From assembly GCA_937928795.1 (NCBI GenBank), contig CALFWB010000040.1, positions 98,496 through 162,495 on the forward strand: DNA of 64,000 nucleotides, given 5' to 3'. Of this stretch, positions 45,595 through 54,952 are shown in pieces (positions within the stretch are counted from its first letter, which is position 1; every line of letters starts with the position of its first letter). Origin of the DNA: an uncultured Anaerolineales bacterium (lineage in GTDB: Bacteria > Chloroflexota > Anaerolineae > Anaerolineales > UBA4823). The notes under the pieces are model-generated. The model was not told the origin of the DNA and searched no databases. It saw only the letters and a program-made list of their open reading frames with translations. The translations under genes and the position numbers were made by a program.

Positions 45595-46296
45595 CTAGAT
45601 TGAAAAATCTTCTCCGTGCCAAACGCCCTGAATTGGACTATGGATTTCGGGCTCTTTGTGGTGATGACCATCAATCCTTTCCTCTAATCGCTTTACGTGC
45701 TCAATGAGCTGGGCTAGAGTTTCGCCGATAGCGTCGGGTAAACGCCCATGATCTAAGTCGGGCTTACCGTTCTGGCGTGGTTGGCTGCGCAGAAGGATCT
45801 GCCCGGGTACACCGACCACCACAGAGTTGGGGGGTACATCCTTAACCACAACAGCGTTTGCCCCAATCCGACTGTTATCACCGATCGTAATCGCTCCTAA
45901 TACTTTTGCTCCTGCCCCAACAACCACATTATTGCCTAAGGTAGGGTGCCGTTTCCCTTTATTGAGACTTGTTCCCCCCAAGGTGACACCATGGTAGAGA
46001 GTTACATTATCACCGATTTCGGTGGTCTCACCGATCACAACACCCATCCCATGATCGATAAAGAAACGTTTGCCGATTTTGGCGCCCGGATGGATTTCGA
46101 TGCCGGTTAATCCCCGCATCAGTTGTGAAAACCATCTGGCGAACAATTTAAGGCGATGAGTCCACAGCCAATGCGCTATGCGATGTCCCCAAACTGCATG
46201 TAAACCTGGATAGCAAAAAAGGACTTCTAGGAAACTGCGCGCAGCCGGATCGCGCTCAAAGACGGATTGAATATCTTCTCGAAGTGATGTAAACAT
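45595..46296 (-). CDS. cysE: Serine O-acetyltransferase
   Basis: [39 protein letters not shown] and GKRHPT. Confidence 0.97.
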
Positions 46297-46650: not shown

Positions 46651-46724
46651 GGGCGGATAGCTCAGTTGGTTAGAGCGCCTCTCTTACACAGAGGAGGTCG
46701 GGGGTTCGAGTCCCTTTCCGCCCA
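46651..46724 (+). tRNA. tRNA-Val (anticodon TAC), CCA not encoded
   Basis: Acceptor stem GGGCGGA/TCCGCCC, anticodon arm CCTCT-CTTACAC-AGAGG, T-loop GTTCGAGTC. TATAAT at 46633-46638. Confidence 0.96.
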
Positions 46725-46770: not shown

Positions 46771-46830
46771 AACTTGACCGAAAGCATTCAAAGGACTAGA
46801 ATTGAGGCAGAGCGCATCCGCGAGGGAAGT

Positions 46831-47232
46831 ATGTCTCTACCGGAGAAGTCGTCAAGGACAGGACTGGCTTGGCAAATTTTGGTGATCGCTTTGGTATTAG
46901 GGGTTGGGGCTTTAATTTTTTATTTCCTTGGAGCTTTCAATTCAAGACCGCAGGGATACCGCTCGATTACCTATCGAGTGGAAGGGACTGCTTCAACCGC
47001 GGTTGTCACCTATACCCAGCCCAACGGATCCAAGACAGAGTTAATCGAGATTGGCGTGCCCTGGCATAAAACCATGAATTTTCCTAAAGGGATGATCGTT
47101 GTTCTGACGGTTGGTAATCCAACCCAAACAGGAGATTTAAAGTGCAAATTATTACTCGATGGAAAAGAATGGAAAGAGCAATTTGCCAAATCACCCAAGG
47201 ACAAGGTCTCTTGTGGGGGAATTATCCCGTAA
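46831..47232 (+). CDS. Single-TM protein with an MmpS-like beta-sandwich domain
   Basis: TM segment, then ITYRVEG...VTY...PW...LKCKLLLDG...VSC. Start reassigned to ATG 46831. Confidence 0.6.
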   Translation: MSLPEKSSRTGLAWQILVIALVLGVGALIFYFLGAFNSRPQGYRSITYRVEGTASTAVVTYTQPNGSKTELIEIGVPWHKTMNFPKGMIVVLTVGNPTQTGDLKCKLLLDGKEWKEQFAKSPKDKVSCGGIIP

Positions 47233-47326: not shown

Positions 47327-50300
47327 ATGACAGATTATTTATTCCGGGGTTCTATTGAGGACTTCGATCGCGATCTCAAGGAACTAATAGAGCTGGAAAC
47401 TGAACGACAGGTGCGCAAATTGATCTTGATTCCCAGCGAAAGCACAGCACCTTTGGCGGTTCGTGAAATCCTAAGTTCTGCTTTTCAAAACATCTATGCC
47501 GAAGGATATCCTCCGGAGGAAAGCCGCAGATATAGCGAAAATGAAATCTTCGATTATGATTTTCAACTTTCGTTATATCGGCGATATTCTGATCTGCGCT
47601 ACTATAAGGGGGTCGAATACGCTAACATTGTGGAGATGTTAGCTAGGCGTCGCTGTGCTGAGCTGTTTGCCAACGATAGGGTGAAGGTTGATGATGTTTT
47701 TGTTAACGTCCAAGCGCTCTCGGGTGCACCGGCAAATAATGCCGTTTTCCATGCCTTACTAAACCCCGGTGACCCTATCTTAGGAATGAGTCTGGTACAT
47801 GGGGGGCATCTGACCCATGGCTCTCCGGTCAATCGTTCAGGAAAACTTTATCAAGCTTATCATTACACCGTTGATCCTGAAACAGAACAAATCAATTATG
47901 AAAGCGTTCAAGAATTAGCTGAGCAAGTTCGCCCAAAAATCCTTATTGCGGGCTACTCGTCCTATCCTTGGGCGGTAGATTGGGAGCGCTTTGCTCAAAT
48001 TGCCCATTCTGTGGGTGCTATCTTGATGGCGGACATTGCCCACGTGGCAGGTTTGGTTGCGGCGGGTGTTTATCCCTCTCCGTTGGGTTATGCAGACGTC
48101 ATCACCTTTACAACGCATAAATCCCTCTGCGGTCCGCGCGGGGCGTGTATCCTAACCACCGATGCAACTTTGGCAAAGAAAATCGATCGGGCGGTTTTCC
48201 CAGGCGAGCAGGGTGGTCCGCATGTGAATACCTTTGCAGCCATGGCTTTAGCCTTCAAACTTGCCCAAAGCGAACAATTTCGCCAATTGCAAGCGCAGGT
48301 GGTCAAAAATTGTGCTGCCTTGACCCACAGATTGCGAGAGTTGGGTTGTCGGATTGCTTATGGTGGGAGCAATACCCACCTGACCAATTTGGATTGTCGC
48401 ACGTTTGTCGGTCCAGACGGGACGACCCTTTCAGGTGACCAAGCCGCCCGCATCTTAGATATCGCCGGAATTGTGGTCAATCGCAATACCATCCCCGGTG
48501 ATACATCGGCAGCCGATCCTTCCGGAATACGTATGGGAACACCGTGGATCACCCAACGCGGTCTCAAAGAAGAACAAATGCACAAGATCGCCGAGTTGAT
48601 TGTGGAGTTGTTGCGAGCAACCAAGCCCTATACTTATGCTGTGCGGGTAGCGAATCTACGGCGCGCAAAAGTGGATTTTGATACCCTAGAGACGGTCAAA
48701 ATTCAAGTTCGGCAGTTAGCCGAGCAAGCAGGTTCTGACGAAAAAATTGGCAATCATGGTTATCCGCACTTTTACTTCATTGACGACTCCTATGCTTCCG
48801 ACTCTGGAATGGTTTCATTTGTTATCAAGGGAGATACCGTGCGTCAGTTTTTGAATTACGCTACCGATGTCGATGTTTCTACCCTGGAGCCAGATGAAGC
48901 TTGTCCGGTTCACATTTCTGCGCCGAAATTGAGTGTGGAAGGAATTTTAGCCTGCCGTGCAGAGAGAGAATTTGTTTTATCCTTGCCGGTCAAAGAAGCT
49001 GCCCATATCGCGGCTTGGTTGCGCGCCCTTTCGGATGGGTACGTTGACTTTGAGCACAAAGAAGGGGCAACCGATCGGGTCATGAAAAAACTGCCCGGCC
49101 CAGTGATTGTCAAAGAAACAGAAAGTAGCCCATTACCGCAAGTGTCCCAGAAGTCCAGTAGCCTCGAAAAGCCCTACTTCATTGGGCTTGGTGGCGGGAA
49201 TGGTGAAGCAAAGCCCGATTTCCAGTGGGTCCAAAGCGAAGGCGAGCTGAAGCGCACTCCCCTGTACGAATTACACCGCCAATTGGGGGCAAAATTGATC
49301 CCCTTTGCCGGGTGGGAGATGCCGGTTTGGTATAGCTCGGTGATTGAGGAACATCAAGCCACCCGCACGGCTGCCGGGTTGTTCGATGTCGCTCATATGG
49401 GGGTTTATCAAGTGGAAGGAGCGGATTCAGCCGCTTTTCTGGATAGCGTATGCGGAAATGACATTGGCGGCTTAGAAGTTGGTGAGTCTTGCTATACCCA
49501 TTTCCTTGATCCCGATGCAAATGTGATTGACGATACGCTGGTTTATCGCCGTGCCCTGGATGCCTTTCTGGTCGTGGTCAATGCTTCCAATGACGATAAG
49601 AATTGGGCCTGGCTGAATGCGGTTTTGGAAGGCAAGGTTTGCATCGATCGCCAACGTCCCTGGGCGCGAGCTTTTGGACGCAAAGCCCGCCTGCGCAACT
49701 TGCGAGACCCCAAAGAAGGCAATGATATGCGGGTAGATATTGCCCTACAGGGTCCAAGATCACGAGAGATCTTATTAGCGTTGGGGGTTGACAACGAAAC
49801 GCGCAAGAAGATCGTAGCCCTGAAGCGTACAGAATTGTGTGATGCGATTGTGGGCGGTTTTGACTTGATCATCTCCCGCACCGGTTATACGGGCGAAAAG
49901 ATGGCATTTGAGCTTTTTGTTCATCCACAGCGCGCTGCCGAGCTGTTTAAAGCCCTACTGGAAAAAGGTGAACCGTTTGGGATCAAACCGGTGGGATTGG
50001 GGGCACGCGATTCGCTCCGCACCGAAGCCGGCTTGCCGCTTTATGGACACGAGATGGGCGAGGGTTCCGGTAAACGCGGTGAACGGGATTTGGGGGTGGC
50101 AGAGGGTGGCTTTGGCAGTTATGTTAAACTCCACAAGCCGTGGTTCATCGGCCGGCAAGCGTTTGTAGAACGCGAAAAGACGCGCAAAGGGGTCGTTGTA
50201 CGCTTTCAGTTTTTGGAGAAGGGCGTGCGGATGGCGCATGGTGGAGATCCGGTCTTGGATAAGCGCGGTCGGGTGATCGGCTGGGTTACCAGTTGTGCTG

Positions 50301-50485
50301 TGGATCAACAAGGTTTTCTAACCGGGCAGGCTTATGTCGAGTTGAAATATGCCGAAGAAGGCACGCGGCTCTTAATCTATCAAGGCTCTCCAGAAAAAGA
50401 GATCAAAGCACCGGCAGCTTTGGCATTGGGAGAGAAATCTGTTTTACCGAGCGAAGCGGTAGTTCTAAGCCGTTTTCCAAAATGA
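47327..50485 (+). CDS. glyA-gcvT: Fusion of serine hydroxymethyltransferase and glycine-cleavage T protein (aminomethyltransferase)
   Basis: SHMT motifs LIPSES, YAEGYP, GGHLTHG, TTHKSLCGPRG and SGIRMGT. GcvT motifs KRTPLY, GLFDVAHMG, RTGYTGE and GLGARDSLRTEAG. One uninterrupted 1052-aa ORF. Confidence 0.93.
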   Translation: MTDYLFRGSIEDFDRDLKELIELETERQVRKLILIPSESTAPLAVREILSSAFQNIYAEGYPPEESRRYSENEIFDYDFQLSLYRRYSDLRYYKGVEYANIVEMLARRRCAELFANDRVKVDDVFVNVQALSGAPANNAVFHALLNPGDPILGMSLVHGGHLTHGSPVNRSGKLYQAYHYTVDPETEQINYESVQELAEQVRPKILIAGYSSYPWAVDWERFAQIAHSVGAILMADIAHVAGLVAAGVYPSPLGYADVITFTTHKSLCGPRGACILTTDATLAKKIDRAVFPGEQGGPHVNTFAAMALAFKLAQSEQFRQLQAQVVKNCAALTHRLRELGCRIAYGGSNTHLTNLDCRTFVGPDGTTLSGDQAARILDIAGIVVNRNTIPGDTSAADPSGIRMGTPWITQRGLKEEQMHKIAELIVELLRATKPYTYAVRVANLRRAKVDFDTLETVKIQVRQLAEQAGSDEKIGNHGYPHFYFIDDSYASDSGMVSFVIKGDTVRQFLNYATDVDVSTLEPDEACPVHISAPKLSVEGILACRAEREFVLSLPVKEAAHIAAWLRALSDGYVDFEHKEGATDRVMKKLPGPVIVKETESSPLPQVSQKSSSLEKPYFIGLGGGNGEAKPDFQWVQSEGELKRTPLYELHRQLGAKLIPFAGWEMPVWYSSVIEEHQATRTAAGLFDVAHMGVYQVEGADSAAFLDSVCGNDIGGLEVGESCYTHFLDPDANVIDDTLVYRRALDAFLVVVNASNDDKNWAWLNAVLEGKVCIDRQRPWARAFGRKARLRNLRDPKEGNDMRVDIALQGPRSREILLALGVDNETRKKIVALKRTELCDAIVGGFDLIISRTGYTGEKMAFELFVHPQRAAELFKALLEKGEPFGIKPVGLGARDSLRTEAGLPLYGHEMGEGSGKRGERDLGVAEGGFGSYVKLHKPWFIGRQAFVEREKTRKGVVVRFQFLEKGVRMAHGGDPVLDKRGRVIGWVTSCAVDQQGFLTGQAYVELKYAEEGTRLLIYQGSPEKEIKAPAALALGEKSVLPSEAVVLSRFPK

Positions 50486-50527: not shown

Positions 50528-51814
50528 ATGGTAAAGCCCGCGGTTAAGGTAACGGGTGCTTTTCGAGACGAAAGAGGATTACAAACTCCGTGGGATCATC
50601 GTTACGCGCATCGCACAAAACGCATGGGAAGCTCTGCAGTGAGGGAGTTGTTAAAACTTACCGAACAACCCGATATTATCTCATTTGCGGGGGGCTTACC
50701 TGCCCCAGATGTCTTCCCGATTGAGAGGTTTGCAGAAGCCTGTCAAAAAGTTCTCCGCGATCATGGCGCTCAGGCATTGCAATATAGCACAACCGAAGGA
50801 TTGTTACCCTTGCGGGAACAGATTGCTCGGCATACGGCGCGTTACGGCATTACCGTTAATCCAGAGAATATCCTCATTACCTCGGGTTCACAACAAGCGC
50901 TTGACCTAATTGGTAAGGTCTTTATCAATCGGGGGGATCGCATCTTGGTCGAATCTCCCACGTATTTGGGGGCACTTCAGGCTTGGAATGCCTATGGGGC
51001 TGAATACGTAGCCGTTCCCTCGGATAAGCACGGCATGATCACGGATGCCCTAGAAGAGGCTTTGCGTTATGGGCCAAAATTTATCTATGTGTTACCCAAC
51101 TTTCAGAATCCGACCGGGGTAACCCTTTCACTAGAGCGTCGTTATCAATTGGTTGAGCTGGCAAACCGCTTTGGGGTGCCCATCGTCGAGGATGATCCCT
51201 ATGGTCAGTTGCGTTTTGAGGGGGAGCATTTGCCTTCAATCGTGGTCGTTGACAGCCAATATCGAGGCAACCATGATCGGTGTTATCGCGGCAACGTAAT
51301 CTATCTTAGCACCTTCTCGAAAATCCTTGCGCCTGGATTGCGCTTAGCGTGGGTGATTGCTCCTCCAGAAGTCATCCGCAAGATGGTGGAAGCCAAGCAA
51401 GGGGAAGATTTGCATACTGCAACCTTCAATCAATTGGTTGCTCATGAAGTTTCCAAAGGCGGCTTTCTGGATGAGCATGTGAAACTGATCCGCCAAGTCT
51501 ATCGCCAGCGGCGCGATGTCATGCTCTCCGCTATGGACCGCTACTTCCCGCCAGAGGTGGATTGGACGCAACCTGAAGGAGGGCTCTTTTTGTGGGGAAC
51601 GATGCCGGAATATCTCAATTCTAAAGAGGTTCTCAAGGATGCCATTGAGCAAAAAGTGGCCTTTGTGCCCGGCGAAAGTTTTTACCCCGGCGGCGGGGGT
51701 CATAACACGATGCGATTGAATTTCTCGAACGCAACACCGCAAAAAATTGAGGAGGGCATCTATCGCTTGGGGAATGTTATTCGAGCAAAAATGCAGGAAT
51801 TAGCTCCTGCCTAA
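50528..51814 (+). CDS. PLP-dependent class I aminotransferase (LysN/MocR-type)
   Basis: ISFAGGLP, ITSGSQQAL, PNFQNPTG, EDDPYG and PLP-Lys STFSKILAPGLR. Confidence 0.92.
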   Translation: MVKPAVKVTGAFRDERGLQTPWDHRYAHRTKRMGSSAVRELLKLTEQPDIISFAGGLPAPDVFPIERFAEACQKVLRDHGAQALQYSTTEGLLPLREQIARHTARYGITVNPENILITSGSQQALDLIGKVFINRGDRILVESPTYLGALQAWNAYGAEYVAVPSDKHGMITDALEEALRYGPKFIYVLPNFQNPTGVTLSLERRYQLVELANRFGVPIVEDDPYGQLRFEGEHLPSIVVVDSQYRGNHDRCYRGNVIYLSTFSKILAPGLRLAWVIAPPEVIRKMVEAKQGEDLHTATFNQLVAHEVSKGGFLDEHVKLIRQVYRQRRDVMLSAMDRYFPPEVDWTQPEGGLFLWGTMPEYLNSKEVLKDAIEQKVAFVPGESFYPGGGGHNTMRLNFSNATPQKIEEGIYRLGNVIRAKMQELAPA

Positions 51815-53023: not shown

Positions 53024-53441
53024 GGTCGAGAGAAGTGGAATGTTCGATGTAGGATTGCAAAAGGACCGCAGCCGAGAGCGCATCCAGACGATAGCTTCGT
53101 TTTTTGGGATTGACTCCCATTTCTCTGCGAGCGTTCAAGGCAATTTGGGTTGTCTCAAATTCATCCCATAAGACTACTGGAATCTTCGTTTGAGCTCGGA
53201 TGGATTGGGCTAGATTGAAGGATCGGCGGCTCTGCAGGGTGGGCTGTTGGTCAATACCTAGTGCCTGTCCAATAAGAATTAACTCGGCTTGGTTTTGCTC
53301 TGCCAAAGCGATAATTCGTTTCGCATCTTCCTCCTTAGAGCGATGGGAAAATTCGGTAAGGGGGAATGCCACCTTGCCGCTGGGATCGCTAATAGCTACC
53401 CCGATTCGGCGTTGTCCTGGATCGATGGCAAGGATTTTCAT
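53016..53441 (-). CDS. ruvX: YqgF/RuvX RNase H-fold nuclease
   Basis: ILAIDPGQRRIGVAISD and LDALSAAVLLQSY. Confidence 0.92.
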   Translation of the reverse strand: MKILAIDPGQRRIGVAISDPSGKVAFPLTEFSHRSKEEDAKRIIALAEQNQAELILIGQALGIDQQPTLQSRRSFNLAQSIRAQTKIPVVLWDEFETTQIALNARREMGVNPKKRSYRLDALSAAVLLQSYIEHSTSLDHE

Positions 53442-54952
53442 TTTTCTATCACGATCTCAATTCGCATGGGGAGCCATGGCAGGACCGGAAACCATTGCGG
53501 AAATATTTCAAAAGTGGGCGGCTTGGAAAGCGGATAAGTCTGATTCAATTGTTGAGAAACACTATGAATCGGTTTGCCCACCACAAGGTTGCGCACCTGT
53601 TCAGGATCAACCTTGAGTTGAATTTGTCTAGAGATTTCAATTGTGCAACGATAATCTTCGTTTTCTGTTTGAGCAAACGCATCTAGACAATGGGCAACAA
53701 ATGTATCCTGTAATGGAATATATCCATTAGGTAAAGAGGAAGCAAGGAGTTGATTGCCCAACTCCATAAGGGTTTGACGAGCTACGATCCCAAAACCGAC
53801 TTCGAGTTCTAGGTCTAGAGAGAGCAAATCAGTGGCAATTGTCTCATCAGGCGTGTATTGTTGTCGGAGCACGCGGCTTTCAATCGCCGAATCGGGCAGG
53901 AGAAGATCTCCATCTATCATCTCTTCGGATACTTTTCTTTTGGCTTTTTCGATCAGTTCAGCTTCTAACTCTCGAAAAAGCAGTTGGCGATCCTGAGCAC
54001 TTGGCGCAGGGGCAAGCATGTCGCTTCCACCCTCGATGGGTTGGGGATTATCTACGCTAACCCTTAAGCCAAGCAACCCTTCGAGGGATTTGATCTCATT
54101 CGGTTGAGCATTTTGAGCAGAGCCCGCCTCTAATGCCTTAACCTTTATGGTGGCACTTTTCTCATCGCCGCTCTTAAGAAGAACGTTTTGCAGGGTGGCA
54201 TAGCGCCGAGGCTTGGCATCCAGCGTCCGCACGACACTGCCGGCGGGGACTTCGATGGGTTGGTCGGTTAGATTGGTTAGGACGACCTCCCCTTGCGCAA
54301 AATCTTTCGGGAGACGGATCGTTCCACTGACTTTGATCGTTTTTTGCCCGCTAACCGAGATCCGCACCATAGAAATTGGCACTTCGCCGGAGAGGCGCGC
54401 TTGTTGTACCCGCTGAGTTGCAACAAGCGGGATTGAAACGCTTTGTTGTTGGAAAGGGGGCGTGATGTGGATAGTGGCGCTTGGCGCAAGGATGCCGAGC
54501 AAGCTGATGACGGCAAGGATGGCGATGCTAAACCAAACTACTCTTGCCCAAAGCGGTAAAATGCTTTGATGGCTTGCTCGCAAGGCTTGAATTGTGGATA
54601 TTTGAGCGCTAAGAGGAGGTTTGCTTAGGGTGGCGGAGGCGCTTCGCGCAGATAATTCCGCAGAATTCTGTCTAGGCCAATCCGCTTGGTGAGCTTTTTG
54701 GATTGAATGGTAAGTGGGGATGTTGCTCTCCCGCGCAAGTGCTTTGATCAGGGGGTCATGGGTCACGAGAGCAAGTTGACAACCCTTTTTTTGGCTCTGT
54801 CTTTTAAGCCGCAGGAGATCGAGTTTATGGTTCAGGACTCTCCTGCGGCGGGGTAGGACAAGTAAGACGCGCTCAGTCTGAATCCAGCCGATTTTATCGA
54901 GAATAGAAATCACATCATCGTGCGCTTCTACTTGCAGGATTTGGGTTTTCAT
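53438..54952 (-). CDS. Membrane-anchored baseplate J/gp47-like domain protein
   Basis: TM around aa 135-155, then AQGEVVLTN...VPAGSVV...VKALEAG...N...DNPQPIEGGSD. ATGA overlap with ruvX. Confidence 0.75.
   Translation of the reverse strand: MKTQILQVEAHDDVISILDKIGWIQTERVLLVLPRRRRVLNHKLDLLRLKRQSQKKGCQLALVTHDPLIKALARESNIPTYHSIQKAHQADWPRQNSAELSARSASATLSKPPLSAQISTIQALRASHQSILPLWARVVWFSIAILAVISLLGILAPSATIHITPPFQQQSVSIPLVATQRVQQARLSGEVPISMVRISVSGQKTIKVSGTIRLPKDFAQGEVVLTNLTDQPIEVPAGSVVRTLDAKPRRYATLQNVLLKSGDEKSATIKVKALEAGSAQNAQPNEIKSLEGLLGLRVSVDNPQPIEGGSDMLAPAPSAQDRQLLFRELEAELIEKAKRKVSEEMIDGDLLLPDSAIESRVLRQQYTPDETIATDLLSLDLELEVGFGIVARQTLMELGNQLLASSLPNGYIPLQDTFVAHCLDAFAQTENEDYRCTIEISRQIQLKVDPEQVRNLVVGKPIHSVSQQLNQTYPLSKPPTFEIFPQWFPVLPWLPMRIEIVIEK

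What the first reader, a model, noticed from the sequence alone, without database searches (positions are those of the whole stretch)
47327..50485. SHMT-GcvT fusion linking two folate one-carbon enzymes
Seen: a single 1052-aa ORF with intact motifs of both enzymes. The SHMT part has an insertion after YAEGYP. No gcvH or gcvP is nearby, and a class I aminotransferase follows 42 bp downstream. Established: GcvT makes 5,10-methylene-THF from glycine cleavage, and SHMT uses it to convert glycine to serine. Inference: channelling of methylene-THF or a scaffolded glycine/serine interconversion complex, with the aminotransferase possibly feeding the same route.
Basis: partly seen in the sequence, partly recalled or inferred. 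Interest (0 to 1): 0.55.

Follow-up and report, generated by a model that had tools for sequence, protein, structure and literature searches.

The report
Natural SHMT–pseudoGcvT–GcvT fusion enzyme
One real, conserved 1052-residue gene joins serine hydroxymethyltransferase, through a dead leftover piece of a second T-protein copy, to the complete T-protein of the glycine cleavage system; it is this bacterium's only copy of either enzyme, is common in Anaerolineae, and I found no study of it.

Summary
Window 47327-50485 (+) is one uninterrupted 1052-aa ORF holding a full SHMT (with a 28-aa insert after YAEGYP) and a full GcvT. Residues ~493-600 are a cut-down, catalytically dead copy of GcvT "domain 2", and structure models place it as the dock that holds the real T module.

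The fusion is not an assembly artefact. The same frame is open in 39 of 61 sampled genomes of the class, and it also occurs in other Chloroflexota families and in MAGs labelled Planctomycetota. In this genome it is the only SHMT and the only T-protein-type GcvT. gcvH-gcvPA-gcvPB lie on another contig behind a glycine riboswitch, without gcvT.

Both halves keep their catalytic residues, so I read it as a bifunctional housekeeping enzyme (confidence about 0.72). Channelling of methylene-THF is plausible but untested.

The downstream aminotransferase is LysN/KAT-II-like and is adjacent only in close relatives, so a link to this route is not supported.

I found no paper describing the fusion. This scan has already reported the same fusion on other genomes (for example e1-3240786, e1-1227952); I reached the same reading independently.

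Verdict: an uncharacterised variant of known enzymes, of moderate interest.

The parts
47327..50485 (+). Whole fusion gene, 1052 aa (P0001)
   Evidence: One ORF without stops. Full-length homologues of 1038-1082 aa at 65-88% identity. The same frame is open in relatives.
47327..48727 (+). SHMT module, res 1-467: catalytic fold to about res 432, then a beta-hairpin and helix extension (res 433-467)
   Evidence: PF00464 at 409.6 bits and NF000586 at 433 bits, above its cut-off. Foldseek TM 0.92-0.96 to solved SHMTs. Schiff-base K265 in TTHKS, Y57/E59, Y92/Y93, H161, D236, H239, R271 and R402 are invariant or nearly so in 60 homologues.
47513..47596 (+). 28-aa insert (res 63-90) after YAEGYP; specific to the fused-type SHMT clade
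   Evidence: Gap in the alignments to solved SHMTs. Pfam SHMT hits are split at the same place in every fused-type gene of the class. R86, D89 and R91 are invariant. The model shows three short helices. Its function is unknown.
48803..49126 (+). Vestigial GcvT 'domain 2' copy (pseudo-GcvT), res ~493-600
   Evidence: hhalign against the protein's own GcvT half gives probability 98.7% and E 1.5e-16, matching res 493-600 to about 689-795. An HMM of the GcvT half hits this module in every fused homologue. A model of res 433-640 (pLDDT 84) matches GcvT-family folds almost exclusively in the PDB (all 18 matches with E <= 0.001), e.g. 1yx2, 3gir, 3a8k, at rmsd 1.7-2.2 A over about 75 residues. The catalytic Asp-Asp is absent.
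49127..49246 (+). Connector, res 601-640, with the conserved KPYFIG motif (res 615-620)
   Evidence: K615 and P616 are nearly invariant. The motif repeats KPWFIG (res 937-942) of the real GcvT half, which suggests a second remnant of the decayed copy; this is my inference from the sequence.
49247..50485 (+). Complete GcvT (T-protein) module, res 641-1052, with an insert of about 25 aa at res ~778-803
   Evidence: TIGR00528 at 258.7 bits, above the cut-off of 235.85. PF01571 at 255.7 bits. E 7e-63 to B. subtilis 1yx2 and 4e-51 to T. maritima 1woo. D735/D736, N752, GYTGE857 and R894-D895 are conserved.
50528..51814 (+). Neighbouring class I/II aminotransferase (LysN/KAT-II-like); probably co-transcribed, not shown to belong to the system
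   Evidence: PF00155 at 135.8 bits. PDB best hits are 1x0m, 3aov, 1wst and 2egy at E about 1e-113. Adjacent only in L010, L011, L013 and L014. No terminator-like site in the 42-nt gap.

Best explanation
The gene encodes a bifunctional folate enzyme built as SHMT, then pseudo-GcvT, then GcvT.

The N-terminal module is the cell's only serine hydroxymethyltransferase (Ser + THF <-> Gly + 5,10-CH2-THF). The C-terminal module is the cell's only T-protein. It works with the separately encoded, glycine-riboswitch-controlled H and P proteins and with L (aminomethyl-H + THF <-> CH2-THF + NH3).

The middle module is a decayed second GcvT copy that no longer catalyses anything. It serves as a rigid dock that holds the T module on the C-terminal side of SHMT.

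Because SHMT is an obligate dimer (established for bacterial GlyA; not tested here), the particle is expected to be (SHMT-T)2.

Inferred benefit: the two folate sites are made in 1:1 amounts and kept together. In glycine catabolism (2 Gly -> Ser + CO2 + NH3) the CH2-THF made at T can then be used by SHMT, and THF returned, without relying on the bulk folate pool.

Shown here: the architecture, its conservation, the catalytic residues, the genomic complementarity, and the predicted middle-domain/T interface.

Inferred only: both activities, the dimer, and any kinetic coupling or channelling.
For: (1) Both enzyme signatures pass curated cut-offs. The catalytic residues of both halves are invariant or nearly so across 60 homologues down to 37% identity.

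(2) In this genome (93% complete) the fusion is the only SHMT hit. The only other GCV_T is a DAO-FAO_M-GCV_T dehydrogenase.

(3) gcvH-gcvPA-gcvPB sit on contig C42 behind a glycine riboswitch (RF00504, 70 bits) with no gcvT. lpdA, folD, fhs and serC are present.

(4) Complementarity across 61 genomes of the class. All 17 genomes with only a canonical SHMT have a high-scoring GCV_T match outside any SHMT fusion (16 in open frames of 368-491 aa, G290 in a 1432-aa open frame). Of the 39 genomes with the fusion, 31 have no canonical SHMT, and most have no high-scoring stand-alone gcvT.

(5) The middle module is homologous to GcvT domain 2 by profile and by fold. Long relatives of 1190-1340 aa still carry a nearly whole second GCV_T domain, scoring 90-170 bits. 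That gives a visible decay series.

(6) The AF2 full-length model has pLDDT 89.8 and pTM 0.87. In the controlled complex prediction of res 8-600 against res 645-1050, ipSAE was 0.77 and the best of 3 controls 0.00. That mark was reached by 58 of 80 solved complexes and 2 of 110 mismatched pairs. The runs shared at least 88% of contacts and the partner pLDDT was at least 87. The contacts are middle-domain res 503-519, 546-547 and 576-590, plus 437-439, against GcvT res 699-715, 781-787 and 931-947.

(7) On an SHMT-domain tree, fused-type SHMTs form one clade (100/100) apart from the canonical SHMTs of the phylum.
Against: - No activity, expression or oligomer data exist.
- Pfam GCV_T_C (the C-terminal barrel) is not detected in this copy at E <= 0.001. 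However, TIGR00528 aligns to position 343 of 362, and the model has the barrel strands.
- The T half has a variant GEKMAFE where T-proteins have GED-GFE, and it carries a 25-aa insert.
- In the serine-to-glycine direction both sites consume THF, so no folate hand-over is needed. The predicted interface does not bring the SHMT catalytic core against T.
- Eight class genomes keep a canonical SHMT beside the fusion, so the fusion is not always the sole provider.
- Structure predictions are model confidence, not measurement, and I could not inspect coordinates.
Confidence: 0.72

Rival explanations
1. Neutral or merely stoichiometric fusion. Both halves are active, but the fusion gives no kinetic coupling. 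It only ties the expression of two housekeeping folate enzymes together, and the middle domain is just evolutionary debris.
For: The predicted interface involves the vestigial domain, not the SHMT catalytic core. Fission into adjacent or separate genes is tolerated in family f6 (G346, G121). Complete loss of T is tolerated in f65 (G283, G323), and both nest inside the fused clade. From my own knowledge, not checked here: work on pea mitochondria found no true channelling between GDC and SHMT.
Against: The middle region keeps strongly conserved motifs (GYPH; W564 invariant within WLRxLSDG; KPYFIG). It is retained with SHMT even where T is split off or lost. The compact, confident inter-domain geometry argues against debris on a floppy tether. 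The fusion persists across very divergent lineages, down to 36-45% identity.
Confidence: 0.2
2. The C-terminal GcvT-family module is not the glycine-cleavage T-protein. It has another role: a different THF-dependent aminomethyl or demethylase reaction, or a regulatory folate-binding domain, as in DmdA, LigM or YgfZ.
For: It scores below the NF001567 subfamily cut-off (284.8 against 300). It has a 25-aa insert and an altered GEKMAFE motif. It is not in the gcv operon and has no glycine riboswitch.
Against: It passes the gcvT equivalog cut-off, and its best solved relatives are bona fide T-proteins. The catalytic Asp pair and the folate-site residues are conserved. The genome keeps H, P and L but has no other T-type gene. 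Across the class, stand-alone gcvT disappears where the fusion is present.
Confidence: 0.06
3. Artefact: two adjacent genes joined by an assembly or sequencing error, or one half is a decaying pseudogene.
For: The window comes from a 128-contig draft genome.
Against: The same uninterrupted frame occurs in dozens of independent genomes, including complete single-contig ones such as G043, G076, G412 and G358. Full-length homologues are reported from several sources. Both halves are under strong residue conservation.
Confidence: 0.01

Closest known systems
Stand-alone bacterial serine hydroxymethyltransferase GlyA (EC 2.1.2.1; e.g. PDB 1dfo E. coli, 7v3d E. faecium, 2dkj T. thermophilus)
   Same: The whole fold-type I PLP fold (Foldseek TM 0.92-0.96 on the target; 38-44% identity). 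The Schiff-base Lys and the substrate and folate-site residues are present.
   Different: A 28-aa insert after YAEGYP. A C-terminal beta-hairpin and helix extension. About 585 further residues carrying pseudo-GcvT and GcvT. It forms its own clade apart from the canonical SHMTs of the same phylum.
Stand-alone glycine-cleavage T-protein GcvT/AMT (EC 2.1.2.10; PDB 1yx2, 1woo, 3a8i, 1wsr)
   Same: The full-length alignment passes the TIGR00528 cut-off. The catalytic Asp pair, N752, GYTGE and the ARD motif are present. H, P and L partners are in the genome.
   Different: It is fused behind SHMT. It has an insert of about 25 aa (res ~778-803) that takes part in the predicted contact with the vestigial domain. 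It is encoded away from the riboswitch-controlled gcvH-PA-PB operon.
FAD-dependent amine oxidases/dehydrogenases with a fused GcvT-like folate domain (dimethylglycine oxidase 1pj5, DMGDH 4p9s, sarcosine oxidase alpha 2gag, TMAO demethylase 9q59)
   Same: A GcvT-family THF domain is covalently joined to the enzyme that handles the neighbouring one-carbon step. This is the precedent for intramolecular hand-over of a C1 unit (known for DMGO; from my own knowledge).
   Different: This ORF has no DAO/FAD domain. The partner is a PLP enzyme that itself uses THF, so what could be passed on is the folate cofactor, not an iminium or formaldehyde. This genome has such a DAO-GcvT protein as a separate gene.
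Plant mitochondrial glycine decarboxylase + SHMT couple (photorespiration); synthetic reductive glycine pathway modules
   Same: The same two reactions are linked through CH2-THF/THF cycling (established biochemistry).
   Different: There the proteins are separate. Here T and SHMT are one chain, with a dedicated docking module.

Membership tests
SHMT / GlyA (PF00464; NF000586) | Full-length match above the curated cut-offs | tested here: met
   PF00464 at 409.6 bits (cut-off 27). NF000586 at 433.4 bits (cut-off 335).
SHMT / GlyA (PF00464; NF000586) | PLP Schiff-base lysine in the T-T-H-K motif, and the active-site set: Tyr/Glu of YAEGYP, RYY, HGGHLTHG, the Asp/His pair, and the carboxylate-binding Arg | tested here: met
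   K265, Y57/E59, Y92/Y93, H161, D236/H239, R271 and R402 are aligned to solved SHMTs and are invariant or nearly so in 60 homologues.
SHMT / GlyA (PF00464; NF000586) | SHMT fold | tested here: met
   AF2 model against 1dfo, 7v3d and 9j4h: target TM 0.95-0.96, rmsd 1.8-2.4 A.
SHMT / GlyA (PF00464; NF000586) | Obligate dimer; Ser/Gly interconversion activity | not testable with these tools
   A dimer of the full protein exceeds the size limit of the complex tool. There is no biochemistry.
Glycine-cleavage T-protein GcvT (TIGR00528; PF01571 + PF08669) | Equivalog-level match over the whole T-protein | tested here: met
   TIGR00528 at 258.7 bits against a cut-off of 235.85, res 641-1017 to model positions 1-343 of 362. 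The NF001567 subfamily is just missed (284.8 against 300).
Glycine-cleavage T-protein GcvT (TIGR00528; PF01571 + PF08669) | C-terminal barrel domain (PF08669) | tested here: inconclusive
   Not reported by Pfam for this copy. It is detected in the relatives L025 and L029. Barrel-like strands at res 955-1047 are modelled with high confidence.
Glycine-cleavage T-protein GcvT (TIGR00528; PF01571 + PF08669) | Catalytic Asp (E. coli D97 / human D101 position) and the folate-site residues | tested here: met
   D735/D736, N752, E857 and R894/D895 are aligned to 1yx2 and 1woo and conserved in the family. The E. coli and human residue numbers are from memory.
Glycine-cleavage T-protein GcvT (TIGR00528; PF01571 + PF08669) | Genomic partners H, P and L present, and no other T | tested here: met
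   gcvH, gcvPA and gcvPB on C42. lpdA at 574.7 bits. The only other GCV_T is DAO-fused. The genome is 93% complete.
Glycine-cleavage T-protein GcvT (TIGR00528; PF01571 + PF08669) | Binds lipoyl-H protein and releases NH3 and CH2-THF | not tested
   I ran no further search on the textbook T-H pair. There is no biochemistry.
DAO-GcvT amine dehydrogenases/oxidases (DMGDH, SARDH, DMGO, SoxA) | N-terminal FAD (DAO) domain joined to a GcvT-like domain | tested here: not met
   This ORF has no DAO, FAO_M or FAD family. It is not a member and resembles them only in design logic.

The most novel reading that the evidence does not exclude
The fusion is a dedicated folate-cycling machine. In a (SHMT-T)2 particle, a polyglutamyl-folate stays bound while its pterin head shuttles between the T and SHMT sites. 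The vestigial T domain and the clade-specific SHMT insert shape this shared path and perhaps also recruit H or P. That would make it a natural glycine-to-serine metabolon that canonical organisms lack, and a ready-made scaffold for the reductive glycine pathway.
Probability: 0.2. Interest if true: 0.75.

Novelty: new variant of a known kind. Interest (0 to 1): 0.52.

Why it matters
SHMT and the glycine cleavage system are the two main entry points of one-carbon units into folate metabolism. Whether they hand folate to each other has been argued for plant mitochondria without a clean test system.

A natural covalent SHMT-T enzyme offers that system. It comes with a dedicated docking domain and with natural split forms (f6) and T-less forms (f65) as built-in controls, so fused versus separated halves can be compared directly.

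It also matters for annotation. Databases name these proteins either 'SHMT' or 'GcvT'. Pathway reconstructions of Anaerolineae and related MAGs will therefore wrongly score one of the two enzymes as missing.

The pair of steps it covers (CH2-THF -> glycine -> serine) is the core of the reductive glycine pathway used in synthetic C1 assimilation.

Tried and rejected
- **Search for relatives in named genomes.** The search for related loci with the middle-domain alignments A2 and A3 failed because no stretch was conserved enough. I therefore have no systematic list of organism names. Taxon labels come only from source names (Anaerolineae, Anaerolineales, Chloroflexota; one Planctomycetota-labelled cluster).
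- **Conserved gene neighbourhood.** Only the aminotransferase recurs, and only in four close relatives. Other flanks are unrelated: a helicase, a nucleoside hydrolase, an RRM protein, zinc-ribbon proteins.
- **Riboswitch in front of the fusion.** There is none in the window. The glycine riboswitch is at gcvH on another contig.
- **Promoter and terminator scan.** Nothing decisive; terminator-like sites occur at chance level.
- **Reverse-order GcvT-SHMT fusion in this phylum.** Earlier scan notes report such fusions elsewhere. The two long open frames around canonical SHMTs that I checked (L050 829 aa, L051 958 aa) hold only an SHMT domain, so they are over-extended frames and not fusions. The reverse-order fusion therefore remains untested here.
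- **Literature.** Six full-text searches found no description of the fusion. Two candidate papers that I opened do not mention it.
- **Whole-model Foldseek.** It returns only SHMTs and gives no information on the domain arrangement.
Full report
**1. The observation**

Window 47327-50485 (+) is a single ATG-started ORF of 1052 codons with no internal stop.

- Pfam finds SHMT (409.6 bits, split into two stretches) and GCV_T (255.7 bits, res 646-912).
- NCBIfam finds SHMT NF000586 (433 bits, cut-off 335) and the gcvT equivalog TIGR00528 (258.7 bits, cut-off 235.85, res 641-1017).
- Alignments to solved SHMTs break between query residues 63 and 91, while the solved chain advances by only two residues. 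The insert after YAEGYP is therefore real and about 28 aa long.
- The next ORF (50528-51814) is a class I/II aminotransferase, 42 nt downstream.
- The genome's only GCV_H and GDC-P genes are on another contig.

**2. It is not an artefact, and it is common**

A search of 5.8 billion clustered proteins returned full-length homologues of 1038-1082 aa at 65-88% identity as the best 120 hits. All carry both Pfam domains. Their sources name them either "serine hydroxymethyltransferase" or "GcvT" of Anaerolineae, Anaerolineales or Chloroflexota MAGs.

In 400 Chloroflexota genomes, one open frame aligning over res 1-1052 is found as follows:

- in nearly all sampled genomes of the same order;
- in several other families of the class;
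- in other families of the phylum (f28, f56, f71, f31, f13) at 36-47% identity.

That sample includes six unpublished genomes (G227, G173, G145, G272, G344, G038). No claim here rests on them.

I also searched an even sample of 61 genomes of the class with PF00464:

| SHMT type found | Genomes |
|---|---|
| Fused type | 39 (8 of them also have a canonical SHMT) |
| Split or broken form | 4 |
| Canonical SHMT only | 17 |
| No match | 1 (94% complete) |

A profile of the middle region alone finds 148 clusters (at 50% identity) at E <= 1e-30 among 1.8 billion representatives. The complete proteins among them are 1027-1339 aa. One 1173-aa cluster is labelled Planctomycetota in NCBI.

**3. A third module: a dead remnant of a second GcvT**

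Res ~433-640 has no Pfam hit but is conserved. Its motifs are GYPH, the invariant W564 within WLRxLSDG, and KPYFIG.

- Profile-profile comparison aligns res 493-600 with res ~689-795 of the protein's own GcvT half (probability 98.7%, E 1.5e-16).
- An HMM of the GcvT half hits this module in every fused homologue at HMM positions ~50-150.
- In the 1211-aa relative L025 the hit spans HMM positions 37-300, and the Asp-Asp motif is still there.
- Other long relatives (1190-1270 aa) give a second Pfam GCV_T hit of 90-170 bits.
- A separate AF2 model of res 433-640 (pLDDT 84.4) matches GcvT-family folds almost exclusively in the PDB (all 18 matches with E <= 0.001): T-proteins 1yx2, 3gir, 1v5v, 1woo and 3a8k, as well as DMGDH, SoxA, LigM and YgfZ. 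About 75 residues align at rmsd 1.7-2.2 A.

In the window's protein the catalytic Asp pair is gone, and the rest of the folate-binding domain and the barrel are missing. This copy cannot be an enzyme. The KPYFIG motif in the connector mirrors KPWFIG of the real T half and is probably another remnant; that is my inference.

The architecture is therefore SHMT, then pseudo-GcvT, then GcvT. The family shows a graded series from a nearly whole proximal copy down to the short form seen here.

**4. Both real enzymes look active**

In the SHMT module these residues are invariant or nearly so in 60 homologues down to 37% identity: the Schiff-base lysine (K265 in TTHKS), Y57/E59, Y92/Y93, H161, D236/H239, R271 and R402. 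The model superposes on solved SHMTs with target TM 0.92-0.96.

In the T module, D735/D736, N752, GYTGE857 and R894/D895 are conserved. The best solved relatives are genuine T-proteins (1yx2 E 7e-63; 1woo E 4e-51).

The T module differs from canonical T-proteins in three ways:

- an insert of about 25 aa at res ~778-803;
- GEKMAFE in place of GED-GFE;
- no Pfam GCV_T_C hit in this copy, although TIGR00528 aligns into that region and the model shows the barrel strands.

**5. Genomic complementarity**

In this genome (3.29 Mb, 93% complete):

- The fusion is the only SHMT.
- The only other GCV_T domain belongs to an 828-aa DAO-FAO_M-GCV_T-GCV_T_C dehydrogenase next to ETF genes.
- gcvH, gcvPA and gcvPB form a cluster on contig C42, preceded by a glycine riboswitch (RF00504, 70 bits) and not by gcvT.
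- lpdA, folD, fhs and serC are present.

The glycine cleavage system is therefore complete only if the fused T half is its T-protein.

The same pattern holds across the class. All 17 canonical-SHMT-only genomes have a high-scoring GCV_T match outside any SHMT fusion; in 16 the open frame is 368-491 aa, and in G290 it is 1432 aa. In most genomes with the fusion, the best or only T-type hit is the one inside the fusion.

One regulatory consequence follows. P and H are glycine-induced through the riboswitch, while T rides on the SHMT gene, which has no riboswitch.

**6. Evolution**

I built a maximum-likelihood tree of the SHMT domain (50 rows, LG+C20+F+G4 PMSF, midpoint root for drawing only).

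- The 38 fused-type sequences form one clade (UFBoot/SH-aLRT 100/100), apart from 12 canonical SHMTs of the phylum.
- The two split forms of family f6 lie inside a 26-row fused clade (97/92). These are G346, where SHMT+pseudo-GcvT (606 aa) is directly followed by GcvT (416 aa), and G121, where the two genes are on different contigs. Their position indicates secondary fission.
- The 646-aa SHMT+pseudo-GcvT of f65 is sister to a fused form (97/88). G283 (a complete genome) and G323 have no GCV_T at all. This indicates secondary loss of T with retention of the vestigial domain.

The vestigial domain thus travels with SHMT.

**7. How the parts sit together (predictions only)**

The full-length AF2 model has mean pLDDT 89.8 and pTM 0.87, which suggests a defined inter-domain arrangement rather than beads on a string.

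I ran a controlled complex prediction of res 8-600 against res 645-1050.

- ipSAE was 0.77 in each of three runs, against 0.00 for the best of three controls.
- That mark was reached by 58 of 80 solved complexes and 2 of 110 mismatched pairs. These counts hold only roughly because my own alignment was used.
- The runs share at least 88% of contacts, and the partner pLDDT is at least 87.
- I know of no solved SHMT-T complex, so the pass is unlikely to come from memory.
- The confident contacts join the vestigial domain (res 503-519, 546-547, 576-590) and the SHMT tail (437-439) to GcvT res 699-715, 781-787 (within the T-specific insert) and 931-947.
- The helix at res 505-512 of the remnant meets the homologous helix at res 701-708 of the real domain 2. 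This is a pseudo-symmetric contact, as expected after a tandem duplication.
- No residue of the SHMT catalytic core is among the confident contacts.

I could not inspect coordinates. The distance between the two folate sites, the role of the 28-aa insert and the dimer geometry all remain unknown.

**8. Mechanism**

Established biochemistry: SHMT interconverts Ser + THF and Gly + CH2-THF. T converts aminomethyl-H + THF to CH2-THF + NH3.

Folate cycles between the two sites only when glycine is converted to serine (2 Gly -> Ser + CO2 + NH3) or in the exact reverse. In serine breakdown both sites consume THF, and in the reductive glycine direction both consume CH2-THF.

The glycine riboswitch on gcvH-PA-PB points to glycine catabolism as the condition under which P and H join the constitutively made SHMT-T.

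My best reading (0.72) is a bifunctional housekeeping enzyme whose fusion fixes 1:1 stoichiometry and proximity of the two folate sites. True channelling is possible but unproven (about 0.2).

**9. The aminotransferase**

The downstream gene is most similar to P. horikoshii KAT-II homologues (1x0m, 3aov), a Thermococcus multiple-substrate aminotransferase (1wst) and T. thermophilus LysN (2egy), all at E about 1e-113. An alanine-glyoxylate transaminase (2zc0) is a more distant hit at 1e-65.

It follows the fusion only in four close relatives. The other 15 loci have unrelated neighbours. A role in the same route is not supported, although a glyoxylate-to-glycine activity cannot be excluded.

**10. 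Novelty**

Six full-text searches and two opened papers gave no description of this fusion.

Earlier reports of this scan describe the same SHMT-pseudoGcvT-GcvT architecture on other genomes, and also a reverse-order GcvT-SHMT fusion. I had reached the architecture independently before reading them. I did not verify the reverse-order fusion: the two candidates I checked were over-extended frames.

I class the finding as a new, uncharacterised variant of known enzymes. It is of moderate interest, mainly as a natural test system for SHMT/GCS coupling and as an annotation trap.

Noticed in passing
L008:6094-6195 (G000 contig C42, outside the window): A single glycine riboswitch aptamer (RF00504, 70 bits) sits about 160 nt upstream of gcvH-gcvPA-gcvPB. 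That operon lacks gcvT. About 870 nt between the preceding ORF and the riboswitch hold no ORF of 100 aa or more.
   Followed up: partly
L009:3132-5618 (G000 contig C40:9132-11618, outside the window): An 828-aa DAO-FAO_M-GCV_T-GCV_T_C protein (dimethylglycine/sarcosine dehydrogenase type), followed by an ETF gene. It is the genome's only other GcvT-family domain.
   Followed up: partly
L028:3890-5830 (G283, complete genome, family f65): A 646-aa SHMT plus vestigial GcvT domain in genomes (G283, G323) with no GCV_T match at all. The dead domain is kept with SHMT after the T-protein is lost, which suggests it also has a role for SHMT itself.
   Followed up: partly
G414 (C111 and C93) and G338 (C5 and C56): Two paralogous copies of the fusion, one short and one long form, occur in a single genome.
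   Followed up: no
window 46774-47232 (+): A 152-aa ORF between a tRNA gene (46651-46724) and the fusion gives a weak Mycobact_memb match (E 1.4e-5). It has no counterpart next to the fusion in any of the 20 related loci, so it may not be a real gene.
   Followed up: partly
window 45595-46296 (-): A serine acetyltransferase (cysE-like: hexapeptide repeats plus SATase_N) lies divergently upstream, so two serine-consuming or serine-producing genes are neighbours here. A cysE homologue also lies near the fusion in L023.
   Followed up: no
window 53438-54952 (-): A Baseplate_J-like 504-aa protein sits next to a YceG/MltG gene with no other phage genes around.
   Followed up: no
L050:2030-4519 and L051:1369-4245: Canonical SHMT genes of other Chloroflexota lie in open frames of 829 and 958 aa whose N-terminal 400-550 residues have no Pfam domain. 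These are probably over-extended frames in GC-rich DNA, and they can mimic fusions in open-frame lengths.
   Followed up: yes
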